Part shown: piece by piece, positions 25,213 through 60,504 of the stretch
Numbering within the stretch: the first letter of the stretch is position 1
How the letters are laid out: every line of letters begins with the position of its first letter
DNA from: a virus
Length of the DNA stretch: 64,000 bases
Reading direction: 5' to 3' (one strand)
IMG/VR virus record: IMGVR_UViG_3300037493_001906
Location: 32,001-96,000 of that record
The notes under the pieces: model-generated
Seen by the model: the letters and a program-made list of their open reading frames with translations, nothing else
Database searches by the model: none
What the model was told of the DNA's origin: nothing
Position numbers and translations under genes: made by a program

Positions 25213-25680
25213 TTATTTATGTTTTACAATATATTCAATTGCTTTAAGCATAATATTTATATTATCTTTAAATTTTCCAATACCTGTATTACAATTATCA
25301 CATAAAAAACCTCTAATTTTTTTAGTATTGTGACAATGATCTAATGAAAGATCTTTTTTTTGTGATGAGTTATGTTCACCACAAATGGCACAATAGCCGT
25401 TGTAAAAATCATAAAGTTTTTTATATTCTTGTTTAGTAATTTTTATACCCTGTTTTTTATAAGAAGACATTTTAACCCCTAATTTAAATTTTTCAGGATT
25501 TTGTTTTCTATAAATACTTGACTTTATTTTATTTTTTTCTAAATTTTTTGGAAGTTTAGCTCTTTTTTTTGCATCTTCATTTTTACAAAATTTGCAATGA
25601 GACGCATATCCAGACTTGTTTCTAGGTTCAACTCCAAATAAAGAAACCTCTTTATTTATTTTACATTTTGTACAAATCAT
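25213..25680 (-). mobile_element. Free-standing homing endonuclease, endonuclease VII family, 155 aa
   Basis: CAICG...LSLDHCHNTKKIRGFLCDNCNTGIGKFKD motif plus N-terminal CxxC motifs; inserted in the structural operon. Confidence 0.85.
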
Positions 25681-27982: not shown

Positions 27983-28047
27983 AATAATACACCTTACTAT
28001 AATATACGTAATTTTTTTAAAGTTTAAAAATAAACTTTTAATCTGAC

Positions 28048-30171: not shown

Positions 30172-30209
30172 ATTACTATAATATATTAAATATTCCTCTA
30201 ATTAACAAA

Positions 30210-35260: not shown

Positions 35261-35701
35261 TTATTTTAAGAATAGCAACTTATATTTTGTAGAATTTATT
35301 AAAGATTTTATTTCATCTATAGTATTTTGAATTTCTGAGTGACTACATGCTTCATGTACCATCTCAGCTAAGTCATATAATCCTCTTAAATACTTAATAC
35401 AATCCTCTGCAGTTTTCATTGTAGGTAGGTTTACTGAAGTAGGAAATGTAAGTAGCTTCTCAGTTACTCCTTGATACTGTTCTATTAAGTCATCAGCTAG
35501 GTCTCCAGCAGCATCATAAAATCCTCCCATTGCTGTGTGTGCAGCATATGATCCTACACCAGTAACAAGCAAATGATTAAGATGCACTTTAGTTACTCCA
35601 TTAAGTAATTCAAAACCTAATGTTGCAATATGTTTTGAGTGATCACCTTTTGAACTTGTTTCTACCCCAGATTTAAGAGGTCTTTGAACGTATTCTGCCA
35701 T
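35261..35701 (-). CDS. Ferritin/Dps-like four-helix protein (DUF5856-like), 146 aa
   Basis: HLNH...YAAHTAMGGFYD...DDLIEQYQG...SEIQNTIDEIKSLINSTKYKL pattern. Confidence 0.7.
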   Translation of the reverse strand: MAEYVQRPLKSGVETSSKGDHSKHIATLGFELLNGVTKVHLNHLLVTGVGSYAAHTAMGGFYDAAGDLADDLIEQYQGVTEKLLTFPTSVNLPTMKTAEDCIKYLRGLYDLAEMVHEACSHSEIQNTIDEIKSLINSTKYKLLFLK

Positions 35702-35706
35702 TTTAT

Positions 35707-36414
35707 TTAGTTATTAGATTCTACTGATTTTTCTTGTATTTGTTGTTGAATTATAGATTCAATATCACCTGCTAAAATTTTAGAACATTCATCAACTAAA
35801 AGTTCTACTATATCATCTTTAAATTCACAGACTATATCTACTAAAGGTATAAGACCTGTATATGGATCTTTTACATTTGTTATTTCAATTTTAATAGGTT
35901 GTCTATAATAAGTAAGAGTAGTATTTTTTAATATAAACTCATTATTTGTATAAACTTGAAACGTATTGTCCTTTAATGTGGCAAAAGTTTCACCCCACTC
36001 ATAACTAGGTTTTTTATTATAATCCTTAAGTAATATGTCTATATTTTGATTCTCTGTTAAATAAACAATCATTTTTTTTGCAGGACAACATCCATCAACT
36101 TTTTCTGCCTCAGTAGATATTCTTTTAAACTGCAAATAATTTATAGGCAAAGTTGTACTTTCAAAGTATTGTTGTTTATTAGTCATTACTATAGAAAGTG
36201 TTGTAAGTAATATTTGAAGATCATCAATCCTTCTTTTGGATTGCTCATCTCCTTCTTTTACTATATTTAATCCATGCAAATTCCTTCTAACCCAATCTGA
36301 TTGGCCTTTATTAAAAGCTTCAATAATCTGCCAGTCCTGAATATTGTCATAGTCATTACTAGCTAATTTATTTAGCCTTTGTTTTACCTTTATGAGTATA
36401 GTTGAATTTAACAT
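35707..36414 (-). CDS. Head-tail ring/adaptor protein (crAss gene-74-like), 235 aa
   Basis: RLNKLASNDYDN...IIEAFNKGQ...EQSKRRIDDLQILL pattern and YYRQP motif. Confidence 0.7.
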   Translation of the reverse strand: MLNSTILIKVKQRLNKLASNDYDNIQDWQIIEAFNKGQSDWVRRNLHGLNIVKEGDEQSKRRIDDLQILLTTLSIVMTNKQQYFESTTLPINYLQFKRISTEAEKVDGCCPAKKMIVYLTENQNIDILLKDYNKKPSYEWGETFATLKDNTFQVYTNNEFILKNTTLTYYRQPIKIEITNVKDPYTGLIPLVDIVCEFKDDIVELLVDECSKILAGDIESIIQQQIQEKSVESNN

Positions 36415-36418
36415 TTAA

Positions 36419-36664
36419 TTAGCATTTCCATTTTTTTCTTGCAAGCCTTAATCTACTATTAGGATCTTTAGCTGCCTTGGGGAACATTTTCATTTGACCT
36501 GCAGATCTAGCACAAAAAGATTTTTTTCTAGAACCACCTTCAGGCTGTGGAGCTTTAAGGTGTGATCCAGGATTAGCATTATTATAAGATGCTCTGCCTT
36601 TTGCATTAAGTCCACCAGAAGGAGACTTACCCTCTTTTCTTTGCCAAGCAGCAGTCTTTGCCAT
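36419..36664 (-). CDS. Small basic protein, 81 aa
   Basis: AWQRKEGKSPSGGLNAKGRASY...RKKSFCARS; a type I recall from environmental phages (unverified). Confidence 0.75.
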   Translation of the reverse strand: MAKTAAWQRKEGKSPSGGLNAKGRASYNNANPGSHLKAPQPEGGSRKKSFCARSAGQMKMFPKAAKDPNSRLRLARKKWKC

Positions 36665-36786
36665 TACTTTTTCTTTTTAGAATTAGACTTCTTCATGTTA
36701 CGTCCTATATTCATACCTACTTGAAAAGATTTTTTAACCTTTTCTCCACATGCTGACTTCTTTGTATTTTTACTAGATGTTGCCAT
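36664..36786 (-). CDS. Lys-rich micro-protein, 40 aa (MATSSKNTKKSACGEKVKKSFQVG...)
   Basis: Translated by hand; TAATG overlap with the next gene. Confidence 0.65.
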   Translation of the reverse strand: MATSSKNTKKSACGEKVKKSFQVGMNIGRNMKKSNSKKKK

Positions 36787-36808
36787 ATTATTTTTTTTAG
36801 CTTTCACA

Positions 36809-37417
36809 TTAACCATTAGTCTCAGTTGTATCTGTTGTAGTAGTATCTGTAGTTCCTGACTCTGTAGTAGTATCAGTTGTTGTATCTGTAGAAGTAGTTG
36901 TAGCTTCTTCAGTAGTTACTTCAGCAGCAGGTTCAGTTGTAGTCTCTGCAGTTGTAGTAGTTTCTTCTACAACAGCAGTTTCTTCAATTGTAGCAGTTGG
37001 TTCAACTACAGTCTCTTCTACTACAGCAGTAGCTTCTTCTGTAGAAATTGAATCTCCAAATGAATCAATAGGAATTGAGGTTGTTGATTCCTCTGTAACT
37101 ACAGGAGTTTCTTCAACTATAGGTGTTTCAACAACTGATGCTTCTTCTACAACTTGTATTACTTCTTCAACACCAACTACAGGAAGACCTGAAGTTGCTT
37201 GATTACTCATAACATTTACATTGAATAAAAGATCACTAATAATAGCAATACTCAAGTTAGGTTCTTCAATACTCTGATGAATTGACAATTGTTTAGTTTT
37301 AGTTAAAACTTCAATTGATGATTCTTCCTTAATATCATAAGAAATAGTATAGAGAATGTTTTCACCAGATGTTACTCTATCTGCAGACTCTGTATAGTTT
37401 ATAAGTTTATATGCCAT
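36809..37417 (-). CDS. Acidic Thr/Glu-rich low-complexity protein (likely start MAYKL, 202 aa)
   Basis: C-terminal half almost entirely E/T/V/A; the ORF-track start at 37450 overlaps the upstream gene. Confidence 0.7.
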   Translation of the reverse strand: MAYKLINYTESADRVTSGENILYTISYDIKEESSIEVLTKTKQLSIHQSIEEPNLSIAIISDLLFNVNVMSNQATSGLPVVGVEEVIQVVEEASVVETPIVEETPVVTEESTTSIPIDSFGDSISTEEATAVVEETVVEPTATIEETAVVEETTTTAETTTEPAAEVTTEEATTTSTDTTTDTTTESGTTDTTTTDTTETNG

Positions 37418-37418
37418 T

Positions 37419-37637
37419 TTAACAAGATTTTTTTGATTTAACCATTCCACCTTTTTTCATTGCAGGTGAAACTAATTTTGCAGGTTTAGGAGCAGCTCCA
37501 GGATATTTTGAATAATCCTTTACATCTATATCCTTATAAGGTTTACCAGAAAATGAACTTCCTCCAAATTGTTTTTTCTTAAGATCATTAAGATCATTAA
37601 AATGCTTAAGAGGATTTGTTGTAGTTTTTAATTTCAT
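37419..37637 (-). CDS. Small basic protein with QFGG and MKKGG motifs, 72 aa
   Basis: From the ORF track; tightly packed with its neighbours. Confidence 0.7.
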   Translation of the reverse strand: MKLKTTTNPLKHFNDLNDLKKKQFGGSSFSGKPYKDIDVKDYSKYPGAAPKPAKLVSPAMKKGGMVKSKKSC

Positions 37638-37639
37638 TG

Positions 37640-37786
37640 TTATTTAGATTTAGCCATTTTTTTAAATGTCCTGGCAAGAGCTTTTCTTTTAGGAGTACAA
37701 GTTTTTTTGGTTTCTGGAGTACAAAAACCTTTATGTTTAGGATTTACTGCTTTTTGTATCCACTTTTTGTCTGACTTAGCTGCCAT
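37640..37786 (-). CDS. Lys-rich micro-protein, 48 aa (MAAKSDKKWIQKAVNPKHKGFCTP...)
   Basis: Translated by hand; fills the gap exactly, with a TAATG junction. Confidence 0.75.
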   Translation of the reverse strand: MAAKSDKKWIQKAVNPKHKGFCTPETKKTCTPKRKALARTFKKMAKSK

Positions 37787-38100
37787 TATTTTTTAGATTT
37801 AGACTTAATTTTAGACTTAACTGCTCCACCTGTTTTACGTAAAGGTTTACCTTCATATATTTTACCAGTACTTCTTTCTGCAGCTCTAACTCCCCATTCC
37901 ATTGGTTTTGCTATACCAGCCCACATAGCTGCTCTAACAGGAGCCTTCAGTACTCTATCAAACATATTTTCAGACTTTGGACCTAAAATATCTTTAGCAT
38001 CCATAACATTATATGTTCCTGGTTTTCTAGTTGCTTTAACTGCAGGAGTAGATTTTACAACTTTTCCTGTTTGAGCTTTTTTTAATATTTTCTTTGCCAT
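37786..38100 (-). CDS. Small basic protein with KKAQTG and RKTGG motifs, 104 aa
   Basis: From the ORF track. Confidence 0.7.
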   Translation of the reverse strand: MAKKILKKAQTGKVVKSTPAVKATRKPGTYNVMDAKDILGPKSENMFDRVLKAPVRAAMWAGIAKPMEWGVRAAERSTGKIYEGKPLRKTGGAVKSKIKSKSKK

Positions 38101-38102
38101 TA

Positions 38103-38279
38103 TTATTTCTTTTTTGTAGGTTTTACAATAGTACTAAGACTATTAAGAGATTTAGTTATACCTCCCATTAAAAATTTATCTTTCTTAATTTCTTCAGCAC
38201 GCTGCAAAGTTCTCATTGCATCACTGATTTCCCAAGACCTATCAATTTTAGGAGAAGCTATTTTTACTTTCTTTGCCAT
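38103..38279 (-). CDS. Basic micro-protein, 58 aa (MAKKVKIASPKIDRSWEISDAMRTLQRAEEIKKD...)
   Basis: Translated by hand; preceded by TATATTATAGT. Confidence 0.7.
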   Translation of the reverse strand: MAKKVKIASPKIDRSWEISDAMRTLQRAEEIKKDKFLMGGITKSLNSLSTIVKPTKKK

Positions 38280-38303
38280 ACTATAATATAGTTAAAATAA
38301 ATG

Positions 38304-38346
38304 ATTCTGCCAAAACTACAAAATAATTTAATAGTCTTGGCAGAAT
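38304..38346 (-). terminator. Terminator-like hairpin inside the micro-protein cluster
   Basis: 15-bp arms ATTCTGCCAA(A/G)ACTA / TAGT(C/T)TTGGCAGAAT with T-rich flanks on both strands. Confidence 0.7.
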
Positions 38347-38353
38347 TTTAATT

Positions 38354-38521
38354 TTATTTTCCCTTAACTTTTTTAAGTCTTGGGTTTTTAGCTTTTGCAG
38401 CAGAAGAAGCTTTACGTGAACTAGAAGCTAAGATTGCCCCTGCGGCCTCTTTGCTAATACCCTGTTTGCTTGCAATGCTGGCCTGGACGGCCTTAAAGCC
38501 TGGGTGTTTTTTACTTGCCAC
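38354..38521 (-). CDS. Basic micro-protein, 55 aa, GTG start (MASKKHPGFKAVQASIASKQGISKEAAGAILASSSRK...)
   Basis: Translated by hand; locally higher GC than its neighbours. Confidence 0.75.
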   Translation of the reverse strand: MASKKHPGFKAVQASIASKQGISKEAAGAILASSSRKASSAAKAKNPRLKKVKGK

Positions 38522-38552
38522 TTTGGTTTTAATTTTTTATTACAATTACACA

Positions 38553-38681
38553 TTATCTTCCTTGTCTATTGTATTTCTTATAACCTAATTTTTCTTTAGG
38601 ACCAAGTTTTTTCTTAGCCTTCCCAGTTTTACGTACACCAAAAGAACTCTTTTTAGTTGAACCTTTATCTACTCTAGCCAT
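38553..38681 (-). CDS. Basic micro-protein, 42 aa (MARVDKGSTKKSSFGVRKTGKAKKKLGPKEK...)
   Basis: Translated by hand. Confidence 0.7.
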   Translation of the reverse strand: MARVDKGSTKKSSFGVRKTGKAKKKLGPKEKLGYKKYNRQGR

Positions 38682-38683
38682 GG

Positions 38684-38986
38684 TTATTTCTTTTTAGCTT
38701 TAATTGTACCACCTTTTTTAAAGGTAGGAGTTTCTCTTTTTACTCTAGATTTTACATTAGGACTAGAAATTTTTGGTCCTTCTGGAGCAACAGCAGTAAC
38801 ATAGCCTTTTTGTATTTTTGATACTCTAGGACTGCCAGTAATAAAACCTTTAAGTGTTCTTTTTACTTTACTTTCATAATCACCTTCACTATTCTGTTTT
38901 GTAACAGTTTTATATTTACCATCTGCTGATTTAACAGAAGTAGAAGATGTGCCACCTATTTGTTTCTTTAATAACTTTTTAGCCAT
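38684..38986 (-). CDS. Small basic protein with KKQIGG and FKKGG motifs, 100 aa
   Basis: From the ORF track. Confidence 0.7.
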   Translation of the reverse strand: MAKKLLKKQIGGTSSTSVKSADGKYKTVTKQNSEGDYESKVKRTLKGFITGSPRVSKIQKGYVTAVAPEGPKISSPNVKSRVKRETPTFKKGGTIKAKKK

Positions 38987-39156
38987 TATTTTTTCAATTT
39001 ACCAGTTGGCACATCACAAGCAGCTTTATTAAGACCACCTGTATAACGTGTAGGATTAGTTACTACTGTAGGATAAGTGTTTTTACCACCAGTATATTTA
39101 GTAGGATTAGTTACCACTTCAGGGAACTTGTTTGAATTTTTTAGTGTACCAGCCAT
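38986..39156 (-). CDS. Micro-protein with a duplicated VVTNPT(K/R)YTGG repeat, 56 aa
   Basis: Translated by hand; TAATG junction. Confidence 0.7.
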   Translation of the reverse strand: MAGTLKNSNKFPEVVTNPTKYTGGKNTYPTVVTNPTRYTGGLNKAACDVPTGKLKK

Positions 39157-39172: not shown

Positions 39173-40186
39173 TTATTGCCATAATTTTTCTACCTTCTTC
39201 ATGAGGTCAACTAAGACATGCTCATTAAGAGGATTCTTTAAAAACTCAACACACTCAGAAGGATTACGTCCCATTTGTGTAGATGAGTCAGTATGATATA
39301 TAAAACCATCTCCTTTAAATGAAATCATTTTATAAAATGTTCCATCTTTAACAATTGATTTTAATTTTAAAGTTTCCATATCTAGCTCTGCAGCATCTAG
39401 GAAAGATTGAGCAGCTCTTCTTAAATTTGACTCAACACCATCACCATTGATAAATGTATCCATGTTGTCATAGTAAACATCATTAGGTGTGTTCTTTTTA
39501 TATTGAGGACTATTTGCATCAACTACTTTACATACATAAAATAATTTGTTAATGTTTTTATTAAATAGTTTATCCAATTCAGAAAGGGCCCTATTTTTAA
39601 TCTTCTTAAGTTCTGTTTTAGTAGAGACAGTATCCACAAATTTATCTAAGTAAAACTTAGGTGGAACAGCTGAACTTCTTGCTAATTCATAACTTGGACA
39701 AATCATTGCAAATCCACCAGCTTCAATAGCATATAACTTAATAAGGTCATATGGATCTTTAGCAGGATCAAGAATAACTGGATCATTACCACATCTCATT
39801 GTGATCCTATTCCAGAACTCATCATTATCATGTCTGAGCAATTTAAGTTTATTCCAAAAATCAGGATCATTGGCATCTACTATATTTGCTGCAAGTTCTT
39901 TTTCAAGTTGTGATACTACAGTTCTTATTTCTTTAATCTTTGCTTCTCTTGTTTCAGTATCCTGAATAAGTTTAACTTCAGGTGAAAATTCATTAAGACC
40001 TGTTAGGTAACGCTTAATACCATTTCTCTCTATACATGCAAGTTGTTCTTCATGGAACACACCATCATATAAAGACATTCCATATTTTTCAAGGCCAAGA
40101 TTACTCATATCAGCATCAAAATATGGTTTAACAGAAATAGTCCCTGATTTTACGTCATAAGGGGATGACACAATAGTAATACTCAT
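39173..40186 (-). CDS. Conserved crAss-like protein downstream of the MCP (gene-75-like), 337 aa
   Basis: Synteny directly after the MCP; LDPAKDPYDLIKLYAIEAGG motif. Confidence 0.6.
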   Translation of the reverse strand: MSITIVSSPYDVKSGTISVKPYFDADMSNLGLEKYGMSLYDGVFHEEQLACIERNGIKRYLTGLNEFSPEVKLIQDTETREAKIKEIRTVVSQLEKELAANIVDANDPDFWNKLKLLRHDNDEFWNRITMRCGNDPVILDPAKDPYDLIKLYAIEAGGFAMICPSYELARSSAVPPKFYLDKFVDTVSTKTELKKIKNRALSELDKLFNKNINKLFYVCKVVDANSPQYKKNTPNDVYYDNMDTFINGDGVESNLRRAAQSFLDAAELDMETLKLKSIVKDGTFYKMISFKGDGFIYHTDSSTQMGRNPSECVEFLKNPLNEHVLVDLMKKVEKLWQ

Positions 40187-40294: not shown

Positions 40295-41923
40295 TTAGAA
40301 TGATCCACCAGTGATTGGGTTTCTCATAACAATTTTCAATACCTTAGTAGGATCTTTCACCCAAATTGCAGGCATTGTTTGAGTCATCATGACACGGTAT
40401 CCATTGAACTGACCAGAGCTTTGGAAGCCTTGTGTACGTCCCATGTAATCCATTGTACCATTTTGATACCACCATTTTAGTTGATTATCCCAAGATAATT
40501 TTAGCATGAAGATATTATCATTACCAGTGTCAGTGATGTCAAAGATAATGAAGCTATAAGATGACAAAGGATTACCATCAATGATTGGGTTTTCAATGTC
40601 ATTTGTATGCAAGTTATCAAAAGCTGGGTTAAGAACAAACTTAACATTAGCTAAGAAAGGAATAACATAACTTGTGAACGCAAATCCAAAGTTAAGATCC
40701 ATTGCACTTGTACCATTGATAGCACCAATACCAGCGTTGCTAGCAGCTTGAATAACAAGACCTGAGTTAGCAGCTTCACGTTTGATAGCCTCATTTACAA
40801 GACGCATACCACCCATACCTGTTTGTACAATCAATTGACGTTTTGGATCTGGTCCTTGAAATTCAACCCTACCTGCGTAGAAGTTATAAATTTCAGAGCG
40901 GAACAATTCCAAGTTGAAGTTAGATTTGTTGTATACTCTTTTGAAAGAGTTATCCAACTGTTTCCAAAGACCCACAGATAAACGCATATCATCTGGACCA
41001 TCTTGCTTAATACGTCCACCATGTCCCCACATCAAGTAGGTTTCAATGTCAGTAGCAATTTTAGTCAAGTGAGCAGCTTCCATAGAAGTAAGGAAAGTTC
41101 TGGTTAAAGTACCATTACCTACTGCACGCTTCAAATAGTCTTTACCCATTTTAGAAGCAATGTCTTCAATTTTAGTGATTGAAGGATCTAGAGTTTTATC
41201 AAAGTTTCTCCAGATTTCAGTTACAGGAACTGTACCATCTGCATTCATACCACCTTTGATCATCATGTCAGCTTTAGAGCTGATAGAATAATGTACGTGA
41301 GCTTCAGCACCACCTACAAAGTTGTAGAATTCACGGAATCCAGCTCTTGTCTGAATATCAGAAAATCTTTCACCATATTCACCTCTTGCAGAACCTTTTC
41401 TGAAAAGTTTGGTTTGTGGTTTAATGTATTTGTTATCAAGAAACTTGTAGTTATCATTGTTAACCAACTGTACTGTGTAGATGAAACCATCTCCCATAGG
41501 AAGAATATCATCAGCAGTAATGTACATCTCCACACCATTGTATTTGTCATAAGTGATAATATCACCATGTCCAAATTCACGTTTGTTGATTTTGATCTTG
41601 AAGGTTGTACCATCAATACCTTTTTGTTGATTAGTTGATTCAATGTCTTCAAGGATATAAGGAAGATCCTGGCTAACAGGGGTCTGCCATTTATACTCAC
41701 CACGGGCATTGTCTACCATGATAATGTTTTTGCCACCAAAGGATGACAATTGATACAAAGGCATTTCTACCTTTTGTGTCATAGCCCAAATATCTACTGG
41801 ACCCAAATCCATGGGTTCAGAGTCTTTAAGCATGTTTACTAAGTGGTAAGAATCCACGTGTGAACTAGCATTGTAGTTCGTATCACGAAGGAGTATACCA
41901 TTGTTTAAAACTGGAGTGCTCAT
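40295..41923 (-). CDS. Major capsid protein (crAss-like), 542 aa
   Basis: Follows portal and scaffold, strongly optimised codons, terminator downstream; LFRKGSARGEYGERFSDI and TQTMPAIWVKDPTK motifs. Confidence 0.85.
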   Translation of the reverse strand: MSTPVLNNGILLRDTNYNASSHVDSYHLVNMLKDSEPMDLGPVDIWAMTQKVEMPLYQLSSFGGKNIIMVDNARGEYKWQTPVSQDLPYILEDIESTNQQKGIDGTTFKIKINKREFGHGDIITYDKYNGVEMYITADDILPMGDGFIYTVQLVNNDNYKFLDNKYIKPQTKLFRKGSARGEYGERFSDIQTRAGFREFYNFVGGAEAHVHYSISSKADMMIKGGMNADGTVPVTEIWRNFDKTLDPSITKIEDIASKMGKDYLKRAVGNGTLTRTFLTSMEAAHLTKIATDIETYLMWGHGGRIKQDGPDDMRLSVGLWKQLDNSFKRVYNKSNFNLELFRSEIYNFYAGRVEFQGPDPKRQLIVQTGMGGMRLVNEAIKREAANSGLVIQAASNAGIGAINGTSAMDLNFGFAFTSYVIPFLANVKFVLNPAFDNLHTNDIENPIIDGNPLSSYSFIIFDITDTGNDNIFMLKLSWDNQLKWWYQNGTMDYMGRTQGFQSSGQFNGYRVMMTQTMPAIWVKDPTKVLKIVMRNPITGGSF

Positions 41924-41963: not shown

Positions 41964-42116
41964 TTATTTTTTTACTGCTCCACCTTTTTTCATAGGAGGT
42001 TTAGCTGTTTTACTTTTTTTTGTAGCAGTTTTAGATGTTTCTTCTTTTTTTGCCCATGGTGGTACCCATTTACCACCTTTTGCTGCAGCAGCAGCTTTCT
42101 TTTTTGGAGTTGCCAT
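41964..42116 (-). CDS. Lys/Ala-rich micro-protein, 50 aa (MATPKKKAAAAAKGGKWVPPW...PMKKGGAVKK)
   Basis: Translated by hand; lies between scaffold and MCP. The + strand ORF 41952..42158 is its antisense shadow. Confidence 0.75.
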   Translation of the reverse strand: MATPKKKAAAAAKGGKWVPPWAKKEETSKTATKKSKTAKPPMKKGGAVKK

Positions 42117-46291: not shown

Positions 46292-46978
46292 TTATATAAA
46301 TTTTAAATTAAACACTCCTTTTTTAATCAATCTTGTCATATGACAAGCTGATTTATGATAATATAATGCACAATCTGTTATAGATTGAAAAATTATACCT
46401 GTATCAAAATTTTTAACTTTTTTCTTTAATTTTGAAACTCTTTTATTTATTGTTTCTTGACTATGCTTTCTTCCAAGTTGAGCTTGTCTATTTATTTCTT
46501 TTTGATAATCTGGTAATTTTTTACCAAAATTAGGATTACCTAAACCTTTTAAATGACCTGTTCTTTTAGCAATTAACTCTGAAGATTGTTTTTTACCATA
46601 CATTGGGTTTTTCTTTCCAAGTCTACTATCTGAAATCTTCTTTCTACTTTCTTGTGAGAGTTCTGTGACACCTTCACCACCATTTGTCATATTACATAAT
46701 TTTCCAAGACCTAAATCTGATCTTCCATAAGTCATAATAAATAACTTTTCTTTTGTTTCAGCTTCAGTCTGTGTAAGATTATCAAGTAAAATATTTACAA
46801 TAAAATGACCTTCACATTTATCTACTATTCGTTGCCAATAAATGTTTCTATTTTTTGTAGTATGGGCTCTTTGATATTTCCATTTTTTCTGGTATCTGCC
46901 AAGTCCAATATAAAACACATCTCCTGTATCAGGTCTTATATGTCTGTATATATAGAATATTGCATTTAGAACCTTCAT
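46292..46978 (-). mobile_element. Free-standing GIY-YIG-family homing endonuclease with NUMOD3-like repeats, 228 aa
   Basis: FYIYRHIRPDTGDVFYIG; LCNMTNGGEG; SRKKISDSRLGKKNPMYGKK repeats. Confidence 0.85.
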
Positions 46979-60204: not shown

Positions 60205-60504
60205 ATGGATAAGTCTAAGAGAAACAGTTTAGCTGGAAAGAGCACAGGTAAATCTAAATCAGCTAAGTACTTTGCATCACACCCTGAAGCAAGAGCTAAG
60301 AAGAATGATTACAATAAAGTATATCATGCTAGTGATGAGCGTAAGAATTATAGAGAAGAACTTAATAAGGTTAATAGGCGGATTAAAGGCTATGGAGATA
60401 ATAAGGATTTAAGTCATACTAAGTCAGGTAAGTTGGTAGCAGAATCACGCAGCTCTAATAGAGCACGCAATGGTAGAGGCAACAATGCTAGATTAAAAAG
60501 TTAA
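60205..60504 (+). CDS. Basic protein with a degenerate HNH-like motif (likely start MDKSK, 99 aa)
   Basis: KDLSHTKSGKLVAESRSSNRARNG. Confidence 0.55.
   Translation: MDKSKRNSLAGKSTGKSKSAKYFASHPEARAKKNDYNKVYHASDERKNYREELNKVNRRIKGYGDNKDLSHTKSGKLVAESRSSNRARNGRGNNARLKS

What the first reader, a model, noticed from the sequence alone, without database searches (positions are those of the whole stretch)
36419..39156. Cassette of ten basic micro-proteins inserted in the capsid operon
Seen: between the gene-75-like and ring genes lie ten 40-104 aa, mostly Lys-rich ORFs, six missed by the ORF track (38986-39156, 38553-38681, 38354-38521, 38103-38279, 37640-37786, 36664-36786). Many are coupled by TAATG junctions, and the block has its own internal hairpin and a TATATTATAGT box. 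Inference: co-expression with the MCP and the net positive charge suggest protamine/histone-like DNA-condensing core proteins, or effectors injected with the DNA. The GC shift in the 55-aa gene suggests cassettes gathered from other phages.
Basis: partly seen in the sequence, partly recalled or inferred. Interest (0 to 1): 0.75.

Follow-up and report, generated by a model that had tools for sequence, protein, structure and literature searches.

The report
Variable cassette of tiny polybasic phage proteins
A marine crAss-like phage carries, between its capsid and tail genes, a fast-changing cassette of ten tiny, very positively charged proteins built from modules shared with ocean cyanophages; they are probably optional cargo packed in the virion with the DNA, not an essential DNA-condensing core.

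Summary
On the minus strand of 36419-39156 lie ten small ORFs (40-104 aa, pI 9.9-11.4, net +7 to +20) and one acidic 202-aa ORF. They sit between a post-MCP gene and a virion gene of a 118-kb, 98%-complete crAss-like phage.

Five ORFs (56, 55, 58, 48 and 81 aa) are conserved under purifying selection. The 104-, 100-, 72- and 40/50-aa ORFs are near-orphans.

In 65 related IMG/VR loci the same slot holds 0-13 genes (16 bp to 5.1 kb, net charge 0 to +293). Of its ORFs of 110 aa or less, 268 of 274 have net charge of +5 or more. The proteins are shuffled, split or fused (up to 642 aa) from a common pool of modules.

A short motif, [M/Y/F]-K-K-G-G-x-[V/I]-K, occurs 151 times in slot proteins and never in 180,000 aa of backbone proteins. 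It sits exactly at module boundaries.

The 81-aa protein is DUF6321. Its cyanophage homologue (T4-GC119, S-SM1 gene 115) was detected in purified virions (Sullivan 2010).

A complete relative of the same genome size carries only three slot genes and no DUF6321. That argues against an essential protamine-like core and for accessory virion cargo, analogous to the hypervariable T4 internal-protein locus.

The function is inferred, not shown. First-stage notes from this scan flag similar clusters on other genomes.

The parts
38986..39156 (-). 56-aa basic protein with two NPTxYTGG repeats
   Evidence: ORF. Homologues in 16 related loci at up to 87.5% identity. pN 0.08-0.14 against pS 0.41-0.84. The exact sequence occurs on 34 contigs.
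38684..38986 (-). 100-aa basic protein, N-terminus MAKKLLKK..GG, C-terminal FKKGGTIKAKKK motif
   Evidence: Only weak hits in 3 loci, and the exact sequence occurs only on its own contig. Coding status is inferred from operon context and the motif.
38553..38681 (-). 42-aa basic protein (GPKEK...QGR)
   Evidence: 50%-identical homologue in the same slot of L001, and by eye in L002. The exact sequence occurs on 8 contigs, and the cluster representative on 30.
38354..38521 (-). 55-aa GTG-start protein (HPGFK module), elevated GC
   Evidence: 83% identical module in 14 loci, where it is the C-terminal part of 94-205-aa proteins. pN 0.15 against pS 0.84. More than 1500 clusters of free-standing ~55-aa homologues, with no Pfam family. 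The exact sequence occurs on 28 contigs. GC3 is 0.32.
38304..38346 (-). Long hairpin followed by a U-rich tract: terminator-like element splitting the block
   Evidence: dG -26 kcal/mol, z -6.43, and 0 of 200 shuffles fold as well.
38280..38290 (-). TATATTATAGT box immediately before the ATG of the 58-aa gene
   Evidence: The exact 11-mer occurs three times on the minus strand, each upstream of a gene start (38279, 30171, 27982). Its role as a promoter or leader is inferred.
38103..38279 (-). 58-aa basic protein (W-E-I/V-S-D/S-A module)
   Evidence: Homologues in 31 loci. pN 0.25 against pS 0.70.
37786..38100 (-). 104-aa basic protein, N-terminus MAKKILKKAQTG, C-terminal KTGGAVKSK
   Evidence: Orphan: only one cluster (97% identical, 104 aa) among 1.84 billion representatives, and no relative in IMG/VR beyond a 40-aa N-terminal hit.
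37640..37786 (-). 48-aa basic protein (CTP...CTP module)
   Evidence: Homologues in 36 loci at up to 85% identity. dN/dS 0.06-0.07.
37419..37637 (-). 72-aa basic protein, C-terminal MKKGGMVKSKKSC
   Evidence: phmmer hits in 7 loci. The exact sequence occurs only on its own contig.
36809..37417 (-). Acidic 202-aa protein (net -36) with a V/E/T-rich run, embedded among the basic genes
   Evidence: No homologue found. Similar acidic V/E-rich runs occur in slot proteins of L021, L022 and L042.
36664..36816 (-). 40- or 50-aa basic ORF (ATG at 36786 or 36816)
   Evidence: No homologue in related loci. Both start versions were called by public gene callers, and the 40-aa form occurs on 3 contigs. This is the weakest member.
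36419..36664 (-). 81-aa DUF6321 protein ending ...KWKC
   Evidence: Pfam PF19846, E 9e-19, 68.3 bits against a cut-off of 28.5. Homologues in 62 loci. AF2 pLDDT 85.7, a small helical fold. 570 phage records carry it.
41964..42116 (-). Outlying 50-aa basic protein with KGG and MKKGGAVKK, between the scaffold-like gene and the MCP
   Evidence: An analogous 51-aa gene sits at the same place in L001.
39173..40186 (-). Upstream flank: conserved 337-aa post-MCP gene of unknown role
   Evidence: 46-81% identical in 61 loci. No PDB sequence or fold match, including crAss001 gp36.
35707..36414 (-). Downstream flank: 235-aa virion structural protein
   Evidence: PHROG 29507 'virion structural protein', E 1e-10. 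54-67% identical in 80 loci.
40295..41923 (-). Crassvirus-type major capsid protein
   Evidence: Pfam PF23898 Crass_capsid, E 4.5e-30.

Best explanation
The block is one instance of a hypervariable accessory locus. In this clade of ~110-122-kb marine/aquatic crAss-like phages, the locus always sits between the post-MCP gene and the first downstream virion gene.

It encodes small polycationic proteins assembled from two ingredients. One is a shared pool of short folded modules: DUF6321, the HPGFK module, the CTP-CTP module, the WEISDA module, NPTxYTGG repeats and, in relatives, DUF5872 and others. The other is Lys-rich linkers and tails carrying a clade-specific short linear motif, [M/Y/F]-[K/Q/R]-[K/T/A/M]-G-G-[S/T]-[V/T/I]-K.

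Most likely (inferred) the proteins are made with the capsid proteins and loaded into the head. There they would lie among the DNA by charge and leave with it at infection, like the T4 internal proteins and the crAss001 cargo proteins. Each module would then serve an optional, host- or defence-specific purpose.

They are not a stoichiometric DNA-condensing core. The G-G motif marks module boundaries. It is the best candidate for a loading tag, a hinge or a processing site.

Shown: the genes, their conservation, the slot's variability, the motif and its exclusivity, and virion presence of a cyanophage homologue. Inferred: packaging in this phage, ejection, and any role of the motif.
For: Structural context:
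- TerL, portal, an acidic scaffold-like gene, the Crass_capsid MCP and virion proteins flank the block on the same strand.

Real genes:
- pN is far below pS for five ORFs, as strongly as for the flanking virion genes.
- Their exact sequences recur on up to 34 contigs.

A dedicated polybasic slot:
- In 65 distinct loci the gap is 16-5119 bp and holds 0-13 ORFs.
- 268 of 274 ORFs of 110 aa or less have net charge of +5 or more.
- Modules are shuffled, free-standing or fused into proteins of up to 642 aa (+99).

The motif:
- 215 observed against 25.5 +/- 5.4 in shuffles.
- 3.42 per 1000 aa in slot proteins against 0 in 179,806 aa of backbone proteins.
- In fused proteins GG lies exactly 3 residues before the DUF6321 core in 86 of 128 cases. 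That is the position where free-standing genes begin with 'MA'.

Virion link:
- The DUF6321 proteins of P-SSM4, P-HM2, Syn9 and S-SM1 are annotated as, or match the listed gene size of, T4-GC119.
- T4-GC119 is listed as 'Structural protein, Y, 13 peptides' in purified S-SM1 virions (Sullivan 2010, PMC3037559, Suppl. Table 8).
- DUF6321 is also fused to cytidylyltransferase/zeta-toxin-type kinase domains, and a cyanophage cytidylyltransferase is a virion protein in the same study.

Dispensability:
- A 100%-complete 119-kb relative has three slot genes (+38) and no DUF6321.
- This matches accessory cargo.

Precedent:
- T4 packs about 1370 internal protein subunits through a ~10-aa targeting sequence (PMC7697877).
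- crAss001 has about 5.5 MDa of cargo space (PMC10172136).
Against: - There is no direct evidence that any protein of this clade is in virions.
- The crAss001 virion mass spectrometry reports only large cargo proteins, with no small basic ones.
- Syn9 gp114, of the same T4-GC119, was not detected in Syn9 virions.
- In a T7-like cyanophage the DUF6321 gene sits in the scaffold-MCP slot that also holds hli and psbA, so a late or structural position does not prove packaging.
- No T4-type capsid-targeting N-terminus is present.
- No prohead or Gly-Gly-type protease was recognised in the genome.
- Four of the ten ORFs are near-orphans.
- The DUF6321 fold gave no functional match.
Confidence: 0.45

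Rival explanations
1. Late-expressed accessory proteins that are not packaged. They would act in the infected cell by binding nucleic acids or ribosomes, for host takeover, anti-defence, or helping DNA handling before packaging. The slot would then be a highly expressed 'moron' hotspot like the scaffold-MCP slot of T7-like cyanophages.
For: - The slot is an insertion hotspot that also holds homing endonucleases (EndoVII, GIY-YIG) in several loci.
- DUF6321 in S-TIP37 lies among hli and psbA.
- The cassette is dispensable.
- The HPGFK and DUF6321 modules are highly conserved and, for DUF6321, folded, which suggests specific partners rather than bulk charge.
Against: - The S-SM1 homologue is in virions.
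- The near-total restriction of the slot to polybasic proteins, and the slot-exclusive motif, point to a shared physical fate rather than unrelated morons.
Confidence: 0.3
2. Essential protamine/histone-like core proteins that condense and neutralise the packaged genome.
For: - Extreme basicity and low complexity.
- Co-location with the MCP.
- One copy of each of the ten proteins sums to about +141 net charge.
Against: - Net slot charge varies from 0 to +293 among relatives.
- Four loci have no cassette.
- A complete 119-kb genome has +38 in the slot, few other basic small ORFs and no DUF6321.
- No HU/IHF/histone family match at E <= 1.
- Individual genes are not conserved across close relatives.
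Confidence: 0.1
3. The G-G motif is a proteolytic processing site, compatible with either reading above. Long fused forms would be polyproteins cut after Gly-Gly into the same micro-proteins that this phage encodes separately.
For: - Module boundaries coincide to the residue. Fused forms read GG + 3 residues + core (86/128), and free-standing forms read MA + 3 residues + core (15/16).
- The same modules occur free or fused.
- An earlier first-stage note on another genome raised the same idea (e1-5900259).
Against: - No C48, C5, S78 or S77 protease is recognisable in the genome, and none among the 30 window proteins scanned against PHROGs (20 also against Pfam).
- The motif often lies only 7-10 residues from the C-terminus, where cleavage would release just a Lys tail.
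- The hydrophobic residue is at P5, not P4 as in adenovirus protease sites. This comparison is from my own knowledge, not tested.
Confidence: 0.15
4. Part of the block is not coding. The orphan ORFs (104, 100, 72 and 40/50 aa) would be chance open frames in A-rich DNA.
For: - No homologues.
- AT-rich, A-skewed DNA readily gives Lys-rich frames.
Against: - The ORFs tile the strand with 1-4 nt gaps or TAATG overlaps and share the ATGGC(A/T) start context.
- GC3 is very low, like neighbouring genes.
- Three carry the slot-specific motif at the typical distance from the C-terminus.
- Rapid turnover of slot genes is the rule in relatives.
Confidence: 0.08

Closest known systems
T4 internal proteins (IPI, IPII, IPIII, Alt) and their variable locus
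   Same: Small, dispensable proteins packed with the DNA in about 1370 copies through a short shared targeting peptide and ejected at infection (PMC7697877). That the T4 locus is hypervariable among relatives and that the proteins are basic is from my own knowledge. The cassette here is likewise small, basic, dispensable and hypervariable, and its members share a short motif.
   Different: No MKTYQEFIAE-type N-terminus and no gp21-type protease were found. The motif here is internal or C-terminal and centred on Gly-Gly. The phage is crAss-like, and packaging is not shown.
Cyanophage T4-GC119 structural protein (S-SM1 gene 115, Syn9 gp114, P-SSM4 160, P-HM2 112)
   Same: It carries the same modules: a C-terminal DUF6321, a DUF5872-like module and a GYHxMPDG module. 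It is polybasic, has an MKKKGG linker in Syn9, and lies in a variable region of the late genes. It was detected in purified virions.
   Different: It is a single 300-700-aa fusion protein in T4-like myoviruses, encoded between the terminase subunit genes. It is not a cassette of separate micro-proteins next to a crAss-type MCP.
crAss001 cargo proteins (gp45, gp46, RNAP subunits)
   Same: Crassvirus virions have dedicated storage for several MDa of cargo protein that is ejected before or with the DNA (PMC10172136).
   Different: The known cargo proteins are 60-277 kDa and helical, with no sequence relation to the slot proteins. No small polybasic proteins were reported in that virion.
Adenovirus core proteins VII, V and Mu
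   Same: These are polybasic proteins packed with viral DNA, and their precursors are cut at (M/I/L)-x-G-G sites. This is from my own knowledge and serves only as a lead.
   Different: There is no homology. The hydrophobic residue is one position further from Gly-Gly here. No adenain-like protease was found. The cassette is dispensable.
Pfam DUF6321 (PF19846) and DUF5872 (PF19197)
   Same: The 81-aa protein is a clear DUF6321 member. Relatives' slots also hold DUF5872.
   Different: Both are families of unknown function. No paper in the searched library mentions DUF6321. Most other slot modules have no Pfam or PHROG family.

Membership tests
Pfam DUF6321 (PF19846) | Match to the family HMM above the gathering score | tested here: met
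   81-aa ORF: 68.3 bits against a 28.5 cut-off, E 9e-19, covering 1-72 of 72 profile positions. Confirmed in the whole-genome search.
Pfam DUF6321 (PF19846) | Conserved core residues, including two Cys with one as the last residue; domain at the extreme C-terminus | tested here: met
   Invariant G17 G18 L19 K22 G23 R46 S49 C51 R53 G56 K63 R71 W79 C81 in 62 sequences. C-terminal position in 8 PHROG families. P-SSM4 is an exception, with 77 extra residues.
T4-type internal proteins | N-terminal ~10-aa capsid targeting sequence of the MKTYQEFIAE type | tested here: not met
   Of the ten ORFs, seven begin MAK/MAA/MAS/MAR, the 56-aa ORF begins MAG, the 72-aa ORF MKL, and the 40/50-aa ORF MAT or MVN. 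None has a T-Y-x-E-F-type leader.
T4-type internal proteins | Prohead protease (gp21, Peptidase_S77) that removes the leader | tested here: inconclusive
   No PF03420 or PF04586 match in the 118-kb genome, but the S77 control rang nowhere.
T4-type internal proteins | Physically present inside the head and ejected with the DNA | not testable with these tools
   There is only indirect support: the cyanophage homologue T4-GC119 was found in S-SM1 virions.
Histone-like / protamine-like DNA-condensing proteins (HU/IHF, H1-type) | Recognisable HU/IHF or histone fold, or family match | tested here: not met
   Pfam at E <= 1 gave no such family for any of the ten ORFs. The DUF6321 model matches no DNA-binding fold above Z 4.5.
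Histone-like / protamine-like DNA-condensing proteins (HU/IHF, H1-type) | Conserved, stoichiometric presence in all related virions | tested here: not met
   0-13 genes and 0 to +293 net charge per slot. Complete relatives have almost none.
Crassvirales-type structural module | Crass-type MCP with portal and terminase on the same strand | tested here: met
   PF23898, E 4.5e-30. Portal PHROG 6547, E 6e-85. TerL PHROG 6681, E 9e-58. The MCP is only 23-27% identical to cultured relatives.
Gly-Gly processed viral polyproteins (adenain/ULP-type) | A clan CE or similar protease encoded by the virus | tested here: inconclusive
   No PF02902 or PF00770 match in the genome at E <= 0.1. Divergent or host enzymes are not excluded.

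The most novel reading that the evidence does not exclude
A previously undescribed cargo-loading system of marine phages. A short Gly-Gly-centred peptide ([M/Y/F]-K-K-G-G-x-V-K) would tag and join interchangeable mini-modules (DUF6321, DUF5872, HPGFK, CTP-CTP and others). A rapidly evolving arsenal of tiny effectors would then be loaded into the capsid, possibly after cleavage at Gly-Gly, and injected with the DNA. The module pool would be shared across crAss-like phages, cyanomyoviruses, cyanopodoviruses and pelagiphages, giving functions to several widespread domains of unknown function.
Probability: 0.25. Interest if true: 0.8.

Novelty: new variant of a known kind. Interest (0 to 1): 0.62.

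Why it matters
Small basic phage ORFs are routinely dropped by gene callers and missed by tryptic proteomics. Here they form a dedicated, fast-evolving locus in a whole clade of abundant aquatic crAss-like phages, and they share modules with the major ocean phage groups.

If these are packaged and injected proteins, three things follow:
- The locus would be the crAss-like counterpart of the T4 internal-protein locus, and a place to look for new anti-defence or takeover factors.
- The Gly-Gly motif would be a simple, testable tag for loading proteins into capsids.
- DUF6321, found in 570 sequenced phages, would gain a first functional context.

The comparative data also give a clear negative result: the cassette is not an indispensable DNA-condensing core.

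Tried and rejected
- **PDB sequence searches.** Searches with the 81-, 48- and 55-aa proteins, and with single sequences and profiles of both flanking genes, found nothing useful.
- **DUF6321 fold.** The AF2 model (pLDDT 85.7) gave only generic helical-hairpin matches (Z <= 4.5) by Foldseek and VIA-align.
- **337-aa flank.** The AF2 model was mediocre (pLDDT 67.6) and did not match crAss001 gp36, so 'gene-75-like / auxiliary capsid protein' could not be tested.
- **Pfam and PHROGs on 149 slot proteins.** Only DUF6321, DUF5872 and homing endonucleases were recognised.
- **Orphan ORFs.** The 104-aa ORF has no family in 1.84 billion representatives. The acidic 202-aa protein has no relative in IMG/VR.
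- **tblastn against sequenced phages.** Nothing for the 48- and 58-aa proteins.
- **ESM Atlas.** The 58-aa protein returned only unnamed viral clusters at scores below 0.9.
- **Rfam and tRNA scans.** Nothing.
- **Sigma-70 promoter and terminator consensus scans.** No excess over shuffles.
- **Capsid-targeting idea.** The motif is absent from other large virion proteins of the window apart from two weak sites in one 887-aa protein, so it is not a general tag of all virion proteins.
- **T4-style leader.** I looked for one in the cyanophage T4-GC119 proteins. Syn9 gp114 has an internal MPPTYNEIFNE that resembles it, but the annotated starts differ and the others lack it, so I do not rely on it.
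- **Programmed frameshift.** A shift joining the 41-aa ATG ORF to the 55-aa frame was considered and dropped, because there is no proper slippery heptamer and gene callers and 28 contigs support the GTG start.
- **Literature.** Searches for DUF6321 and for 'Crassvirales' plus 'lysine-rich' found no paper.

Full report
**What is in the window**

The window lies in a 118,098-bp virus record rated 98% complete. The region is a late structural array on the minus strand. In order it holds:
- the terminase large subunit;
- a homing endonuclease;
- the portal;
- an acidic 418-aa scaffold-like protein;
- a 50-aa basic ORF;
- a Crassvirus-type major capsid protein (PF23898, E 4.5e-30);
- a conserved 337-aa gene;
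- the block in question;
- a 235-aa 'virion structural protein';
- a Dps-like DUF5856 protein;
- further virion proteins.

The MCP is only 23-27% identical to any sequenced phage. The DUF6321 gene has 70-83% nucleotide matches to pelagiphages and cyanophages, which suggests a marine origin.

**Checking the observation**

All ten ORFs are present as described.
- Charge: pI 9.9-11.4, net charge +7 to +20, and 14-30% Lys against 7.2% in the large proteins.
- Operon structure: the ORFs tile the strand with TAATG overlaps or 1-4 nt spacers, and most start ATGGC(A/T).
- Split into two units: a 74-nt spacer holds a strong hairpin (dG -26 kcal/mol, z -6.4) with a U-rich tail. The 11-mer TATATTATAGT follows, abutting the next ATG.
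- The 11-mer recurs exactly twice more on the same strand, each time just upstream (3 and 13 nt) of the start of another virion gene. It is probably a phage promoter or leader element.
- Genome-wide, 11 of the 15 strongly basic small ORFs lie in this 2.7-kb block, and a twelfth (the 50-aa ORF) lies next to the MCP.

**Are they genes?**

Four close relatives (73-81% identity on the 337-aa gene) and 80 further IMG/VR loci carrying the 235-aa gene were retrieved.
- tblastn finds same-strand, same-slot homologues of the 56-aa ORF in 16 loci, the 55-aa in 14, the 58-aa in 31, the 48-aa in 36 and the 81-aa in 62.
- For these five, pN (0.08-0.25) is far below pS (0.41-0.87). That constraint is as strong as, or stronger than, on the flanking virion genes.
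- This also settles the frame of the 55-aa gene: the GTG-start frame is the conserved one, and its exact sequence is on 28 contigs.
- The 42-aa ORF has homologues in L001 and L002.
- The 100-, 104-, 72- and 40/50-aa ORFs are near-orphans. The 104-aa protein has a single 97%-identical cluster among 1.84 billion representatives. Their coding status rests on operon structure, codon composition and the shared motif.

**The slot across the clade**

In 65 distinct loci the distance between the two flanking genes ranges from 16 bp to 5119 bp.
- The slot holds 0-13 ORFs (median 7), 0-1656 aa and a net charge of 0 to +293 (median +144).
- Of 274 slot ORFs of 110 aa or less, 268 have net charge of +5 or more.
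- The same modules appear in different orders, free-standing or fused: DUF6321 in 45 loci, CTP-CTP in 25, a CxxCGG N-terminus in 26, DUF5872-like in 21, WEVESA in 17, a GLWxNI module in 17, and HPGFK in 12.
- Fused polybasic proteins reach 642 aa (+99).
- Homing endonucleases occupy the slot in some loci.
- About 7% of slot proteins in relatives carry a Gly/Ala-rich hydrophobic segment. None does in the window.

**A slot-specific short motif**

Around Gly-Gly there is a strong pattern: M/Y/F at -3, K/Q/R at -2, K/T at -1, S/T at +2, V/T/I at +3 and K at +4.
- It occurs 215 times against 25.5 +/- 5.4 in composition-preserving shuffles.
- A stricter form occurs 151 times in 44,105 aa of slot proteins and not once in 179,806 aa of backbone proteins of the same loci.
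- It clusters 7-10 residues from C-termini and 6-10 from N-termini.
- In the window it is on the 100-, 72- and 50-aa proteins, with a variant on the 104-aa protein.
- It marks module boundaries precisely. In fused proteins GG lies exactly three residues before the DUF6321 core in 86 of 128 cases. Free-standing genes begin 'MA' at that very position in 15 of 16 cases. Similar registers hold for the HPGFK and WIQKA modules.
- The same arrangement is seen outside the clade (MARIKKAQxG... R-x-G-G-K-T-A-A-W).

**Link to virions**

DUF6321 occurs in 570 sequenced phages, mostly cyanomyoviruses, cyanopodoviruses and pelagiphages.
- It is nearly always the extreme C-terminal domain of variable proteins.
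- In metagenomes it is fused to zeta-toxin-type kinase and cytidylyltransferase domains, or to DUF192.
- The P-SSM4 and P-HM2 hits lie in genes annotated T4-GC119.
- S-SM1 gene 115 (T4-GC119) is a 495-aa polybasic protein with a DUF5872-like module and a C-terminal DUF6321.
- Syn9 gp114 has the same architecture, with a GMKKKGGK linker.
- Supplementary Table 8 of Sullivan et al. 2010 lists T4-GC119 as a structural protein detected in purified S-SM1 virions with 13 peptide counts, and as not detected in Syn9.
- This is the only experimental evidence bearing on the family, and it favours virion association.

**Against a DNA-condensing core**

- Four loci have no cassette within the 8-13 kb retrieved around the slot.
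- A 100%-complete, terminally repeated 119,466-bp relative has three slot genes (+38 in all), one other polybasic mini-ORF and no DUF6321 anywhere.
- A 92%-complete 110-kb relative likewise lacks DUF6321.
- Even a very close 119,946-bp relative shares the exact 56-, 42- and 55-aa proteins but not the 100-, 104- or 72-aa ones.

**Interpretation**

The best reading (confidence about 0.45) is a hypervariable locus of accessory virion cargo. It would be analogous to the T4 internal-protein locus (PMC7697877) and would fit the large cargo capacity of crassvirus virions (PMC10172136). The Gly-Gly motif would serve as loading tag, hinge or processing site.

The main rival (0.3) is non-packaged late accessory proteins in a highly expressed insertion hotspot, as in T7-like cyanophages, where DUF6321 sits beside hli and psbA.

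Processing at Gly-Gly is attractive because of the boundary register. However, no protease of families C48, C5, S78 or S77 was found.

The DUF6321 model is a confident small helical fold (pLDDT 85.7) without informative structural neighbours. The HPGFK protein belongs to a family of more than 1500 clusters with no Pfam entry.

**Novelty**

I found no paper mentioning DUF6321, and none linking Crassvirales with lysine-rich proteins. The crAss001 atlas reports no such proteins. First-stage notes of this scan describe similar clusters and the di-glycine motif on other genomes; these are unverified and not independent evidence.

I class the finding as a new variant of a known kind: phage internal or cargo proteins.

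Noticed in passing
window 38280-38290, 30175-30185, 27996-28006 (minus strand): The exact 11-mer TATATTATAGT occurs three times, each 0-13 nt upstream of a virion gene start and preceded by an AT-rich tract. It is a candidate phage late promoter or leader element.
   Followed up: partly
window 35261-35701 (-): A Dps/ferritin-like DUF5856 protein (PHROG 858) sits inside the structural array right after the 235-aa virion gene. It is conserved at that place in many, though not all, of the relatives inspected.
   Followed up: no
window 38428-38553 (-): A 41-aa basic ATG ORF is TAATG-coupled to the 42-aa gene and overlaps the start of the conserved 55-aa GTG gene in another frame. Conservation supports the 55-aa frame. 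Whether the 41-aa frame is also translated is open.
   Followed up: partly
window 36809-37417 (-); L021:2348-2674, L022:3633-3959, L042:3040-3336: An acidic protein with a V/E/T/P-rich run is embedded among the polybasic genes in the window and in three other loci. It could be a charge-matching partner or chaperone, but it is absent from most slots.
   Followed up: partly
L031:2514-4442, L040:2751-3032, L015:4045-4326 and others: About 7% of slot proteins in 21 of 65 loci carry one Gly/Ala-rich, glycine-zipper-like hydrophobic segment flanked by Lys. This hints that some members insert into membranes, as ejection proteins do. None does in the window.
   Followed up: partly
window 46292-46978 (-) and 25213-25680 (-); L017:5502-6005, L061:4857-5273, L032:4636-5361: Homing endonucleases (GIY-YIG/phrog_314 type and endonuclease VII type) lie between terminase and portal and next to a virion gene in the window. 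They also lie inside the polybasic slot in relatives, and may drive the shuffling.
   Followed up: no
window 38354-38521 (-): The 55-aa HPGFK protein belongs to a very conserved family (75-89% identity across more than 1500 clusters). It also occurs in Bradyrhizobium and Agrobacterium phages, and it has no Pfam or PHROG family.
   Followed up: partly
window 60205-60504 (+): A separate 99-aa, +17 basic protein lies on the opposite strand in the early or other region, outside the cassette. It was not examined.
   Followed up: no
window 37419-37637, 36419-36664; L003:9937-10107, L031:2332-2502, L040:1923-2090: Several unrelated slot proteins end in a C-terminal Cys (..KKSC, ..KKC, ..KWKC), and most modules contain exactly two Cys. 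The phage's other virion proteins were flagged as Cys-rich by earlier notes, so disulfide or metal bridging in the particle is possible.
   Followed up: no
window 39173-40186 (-): The conserved 337-aa post-MCP gene has no PDB sequence or fold match, and its model does not resemble the crAss001 auxiliary capsid protein gp36. Its role is unknown.
   Followed up: partly
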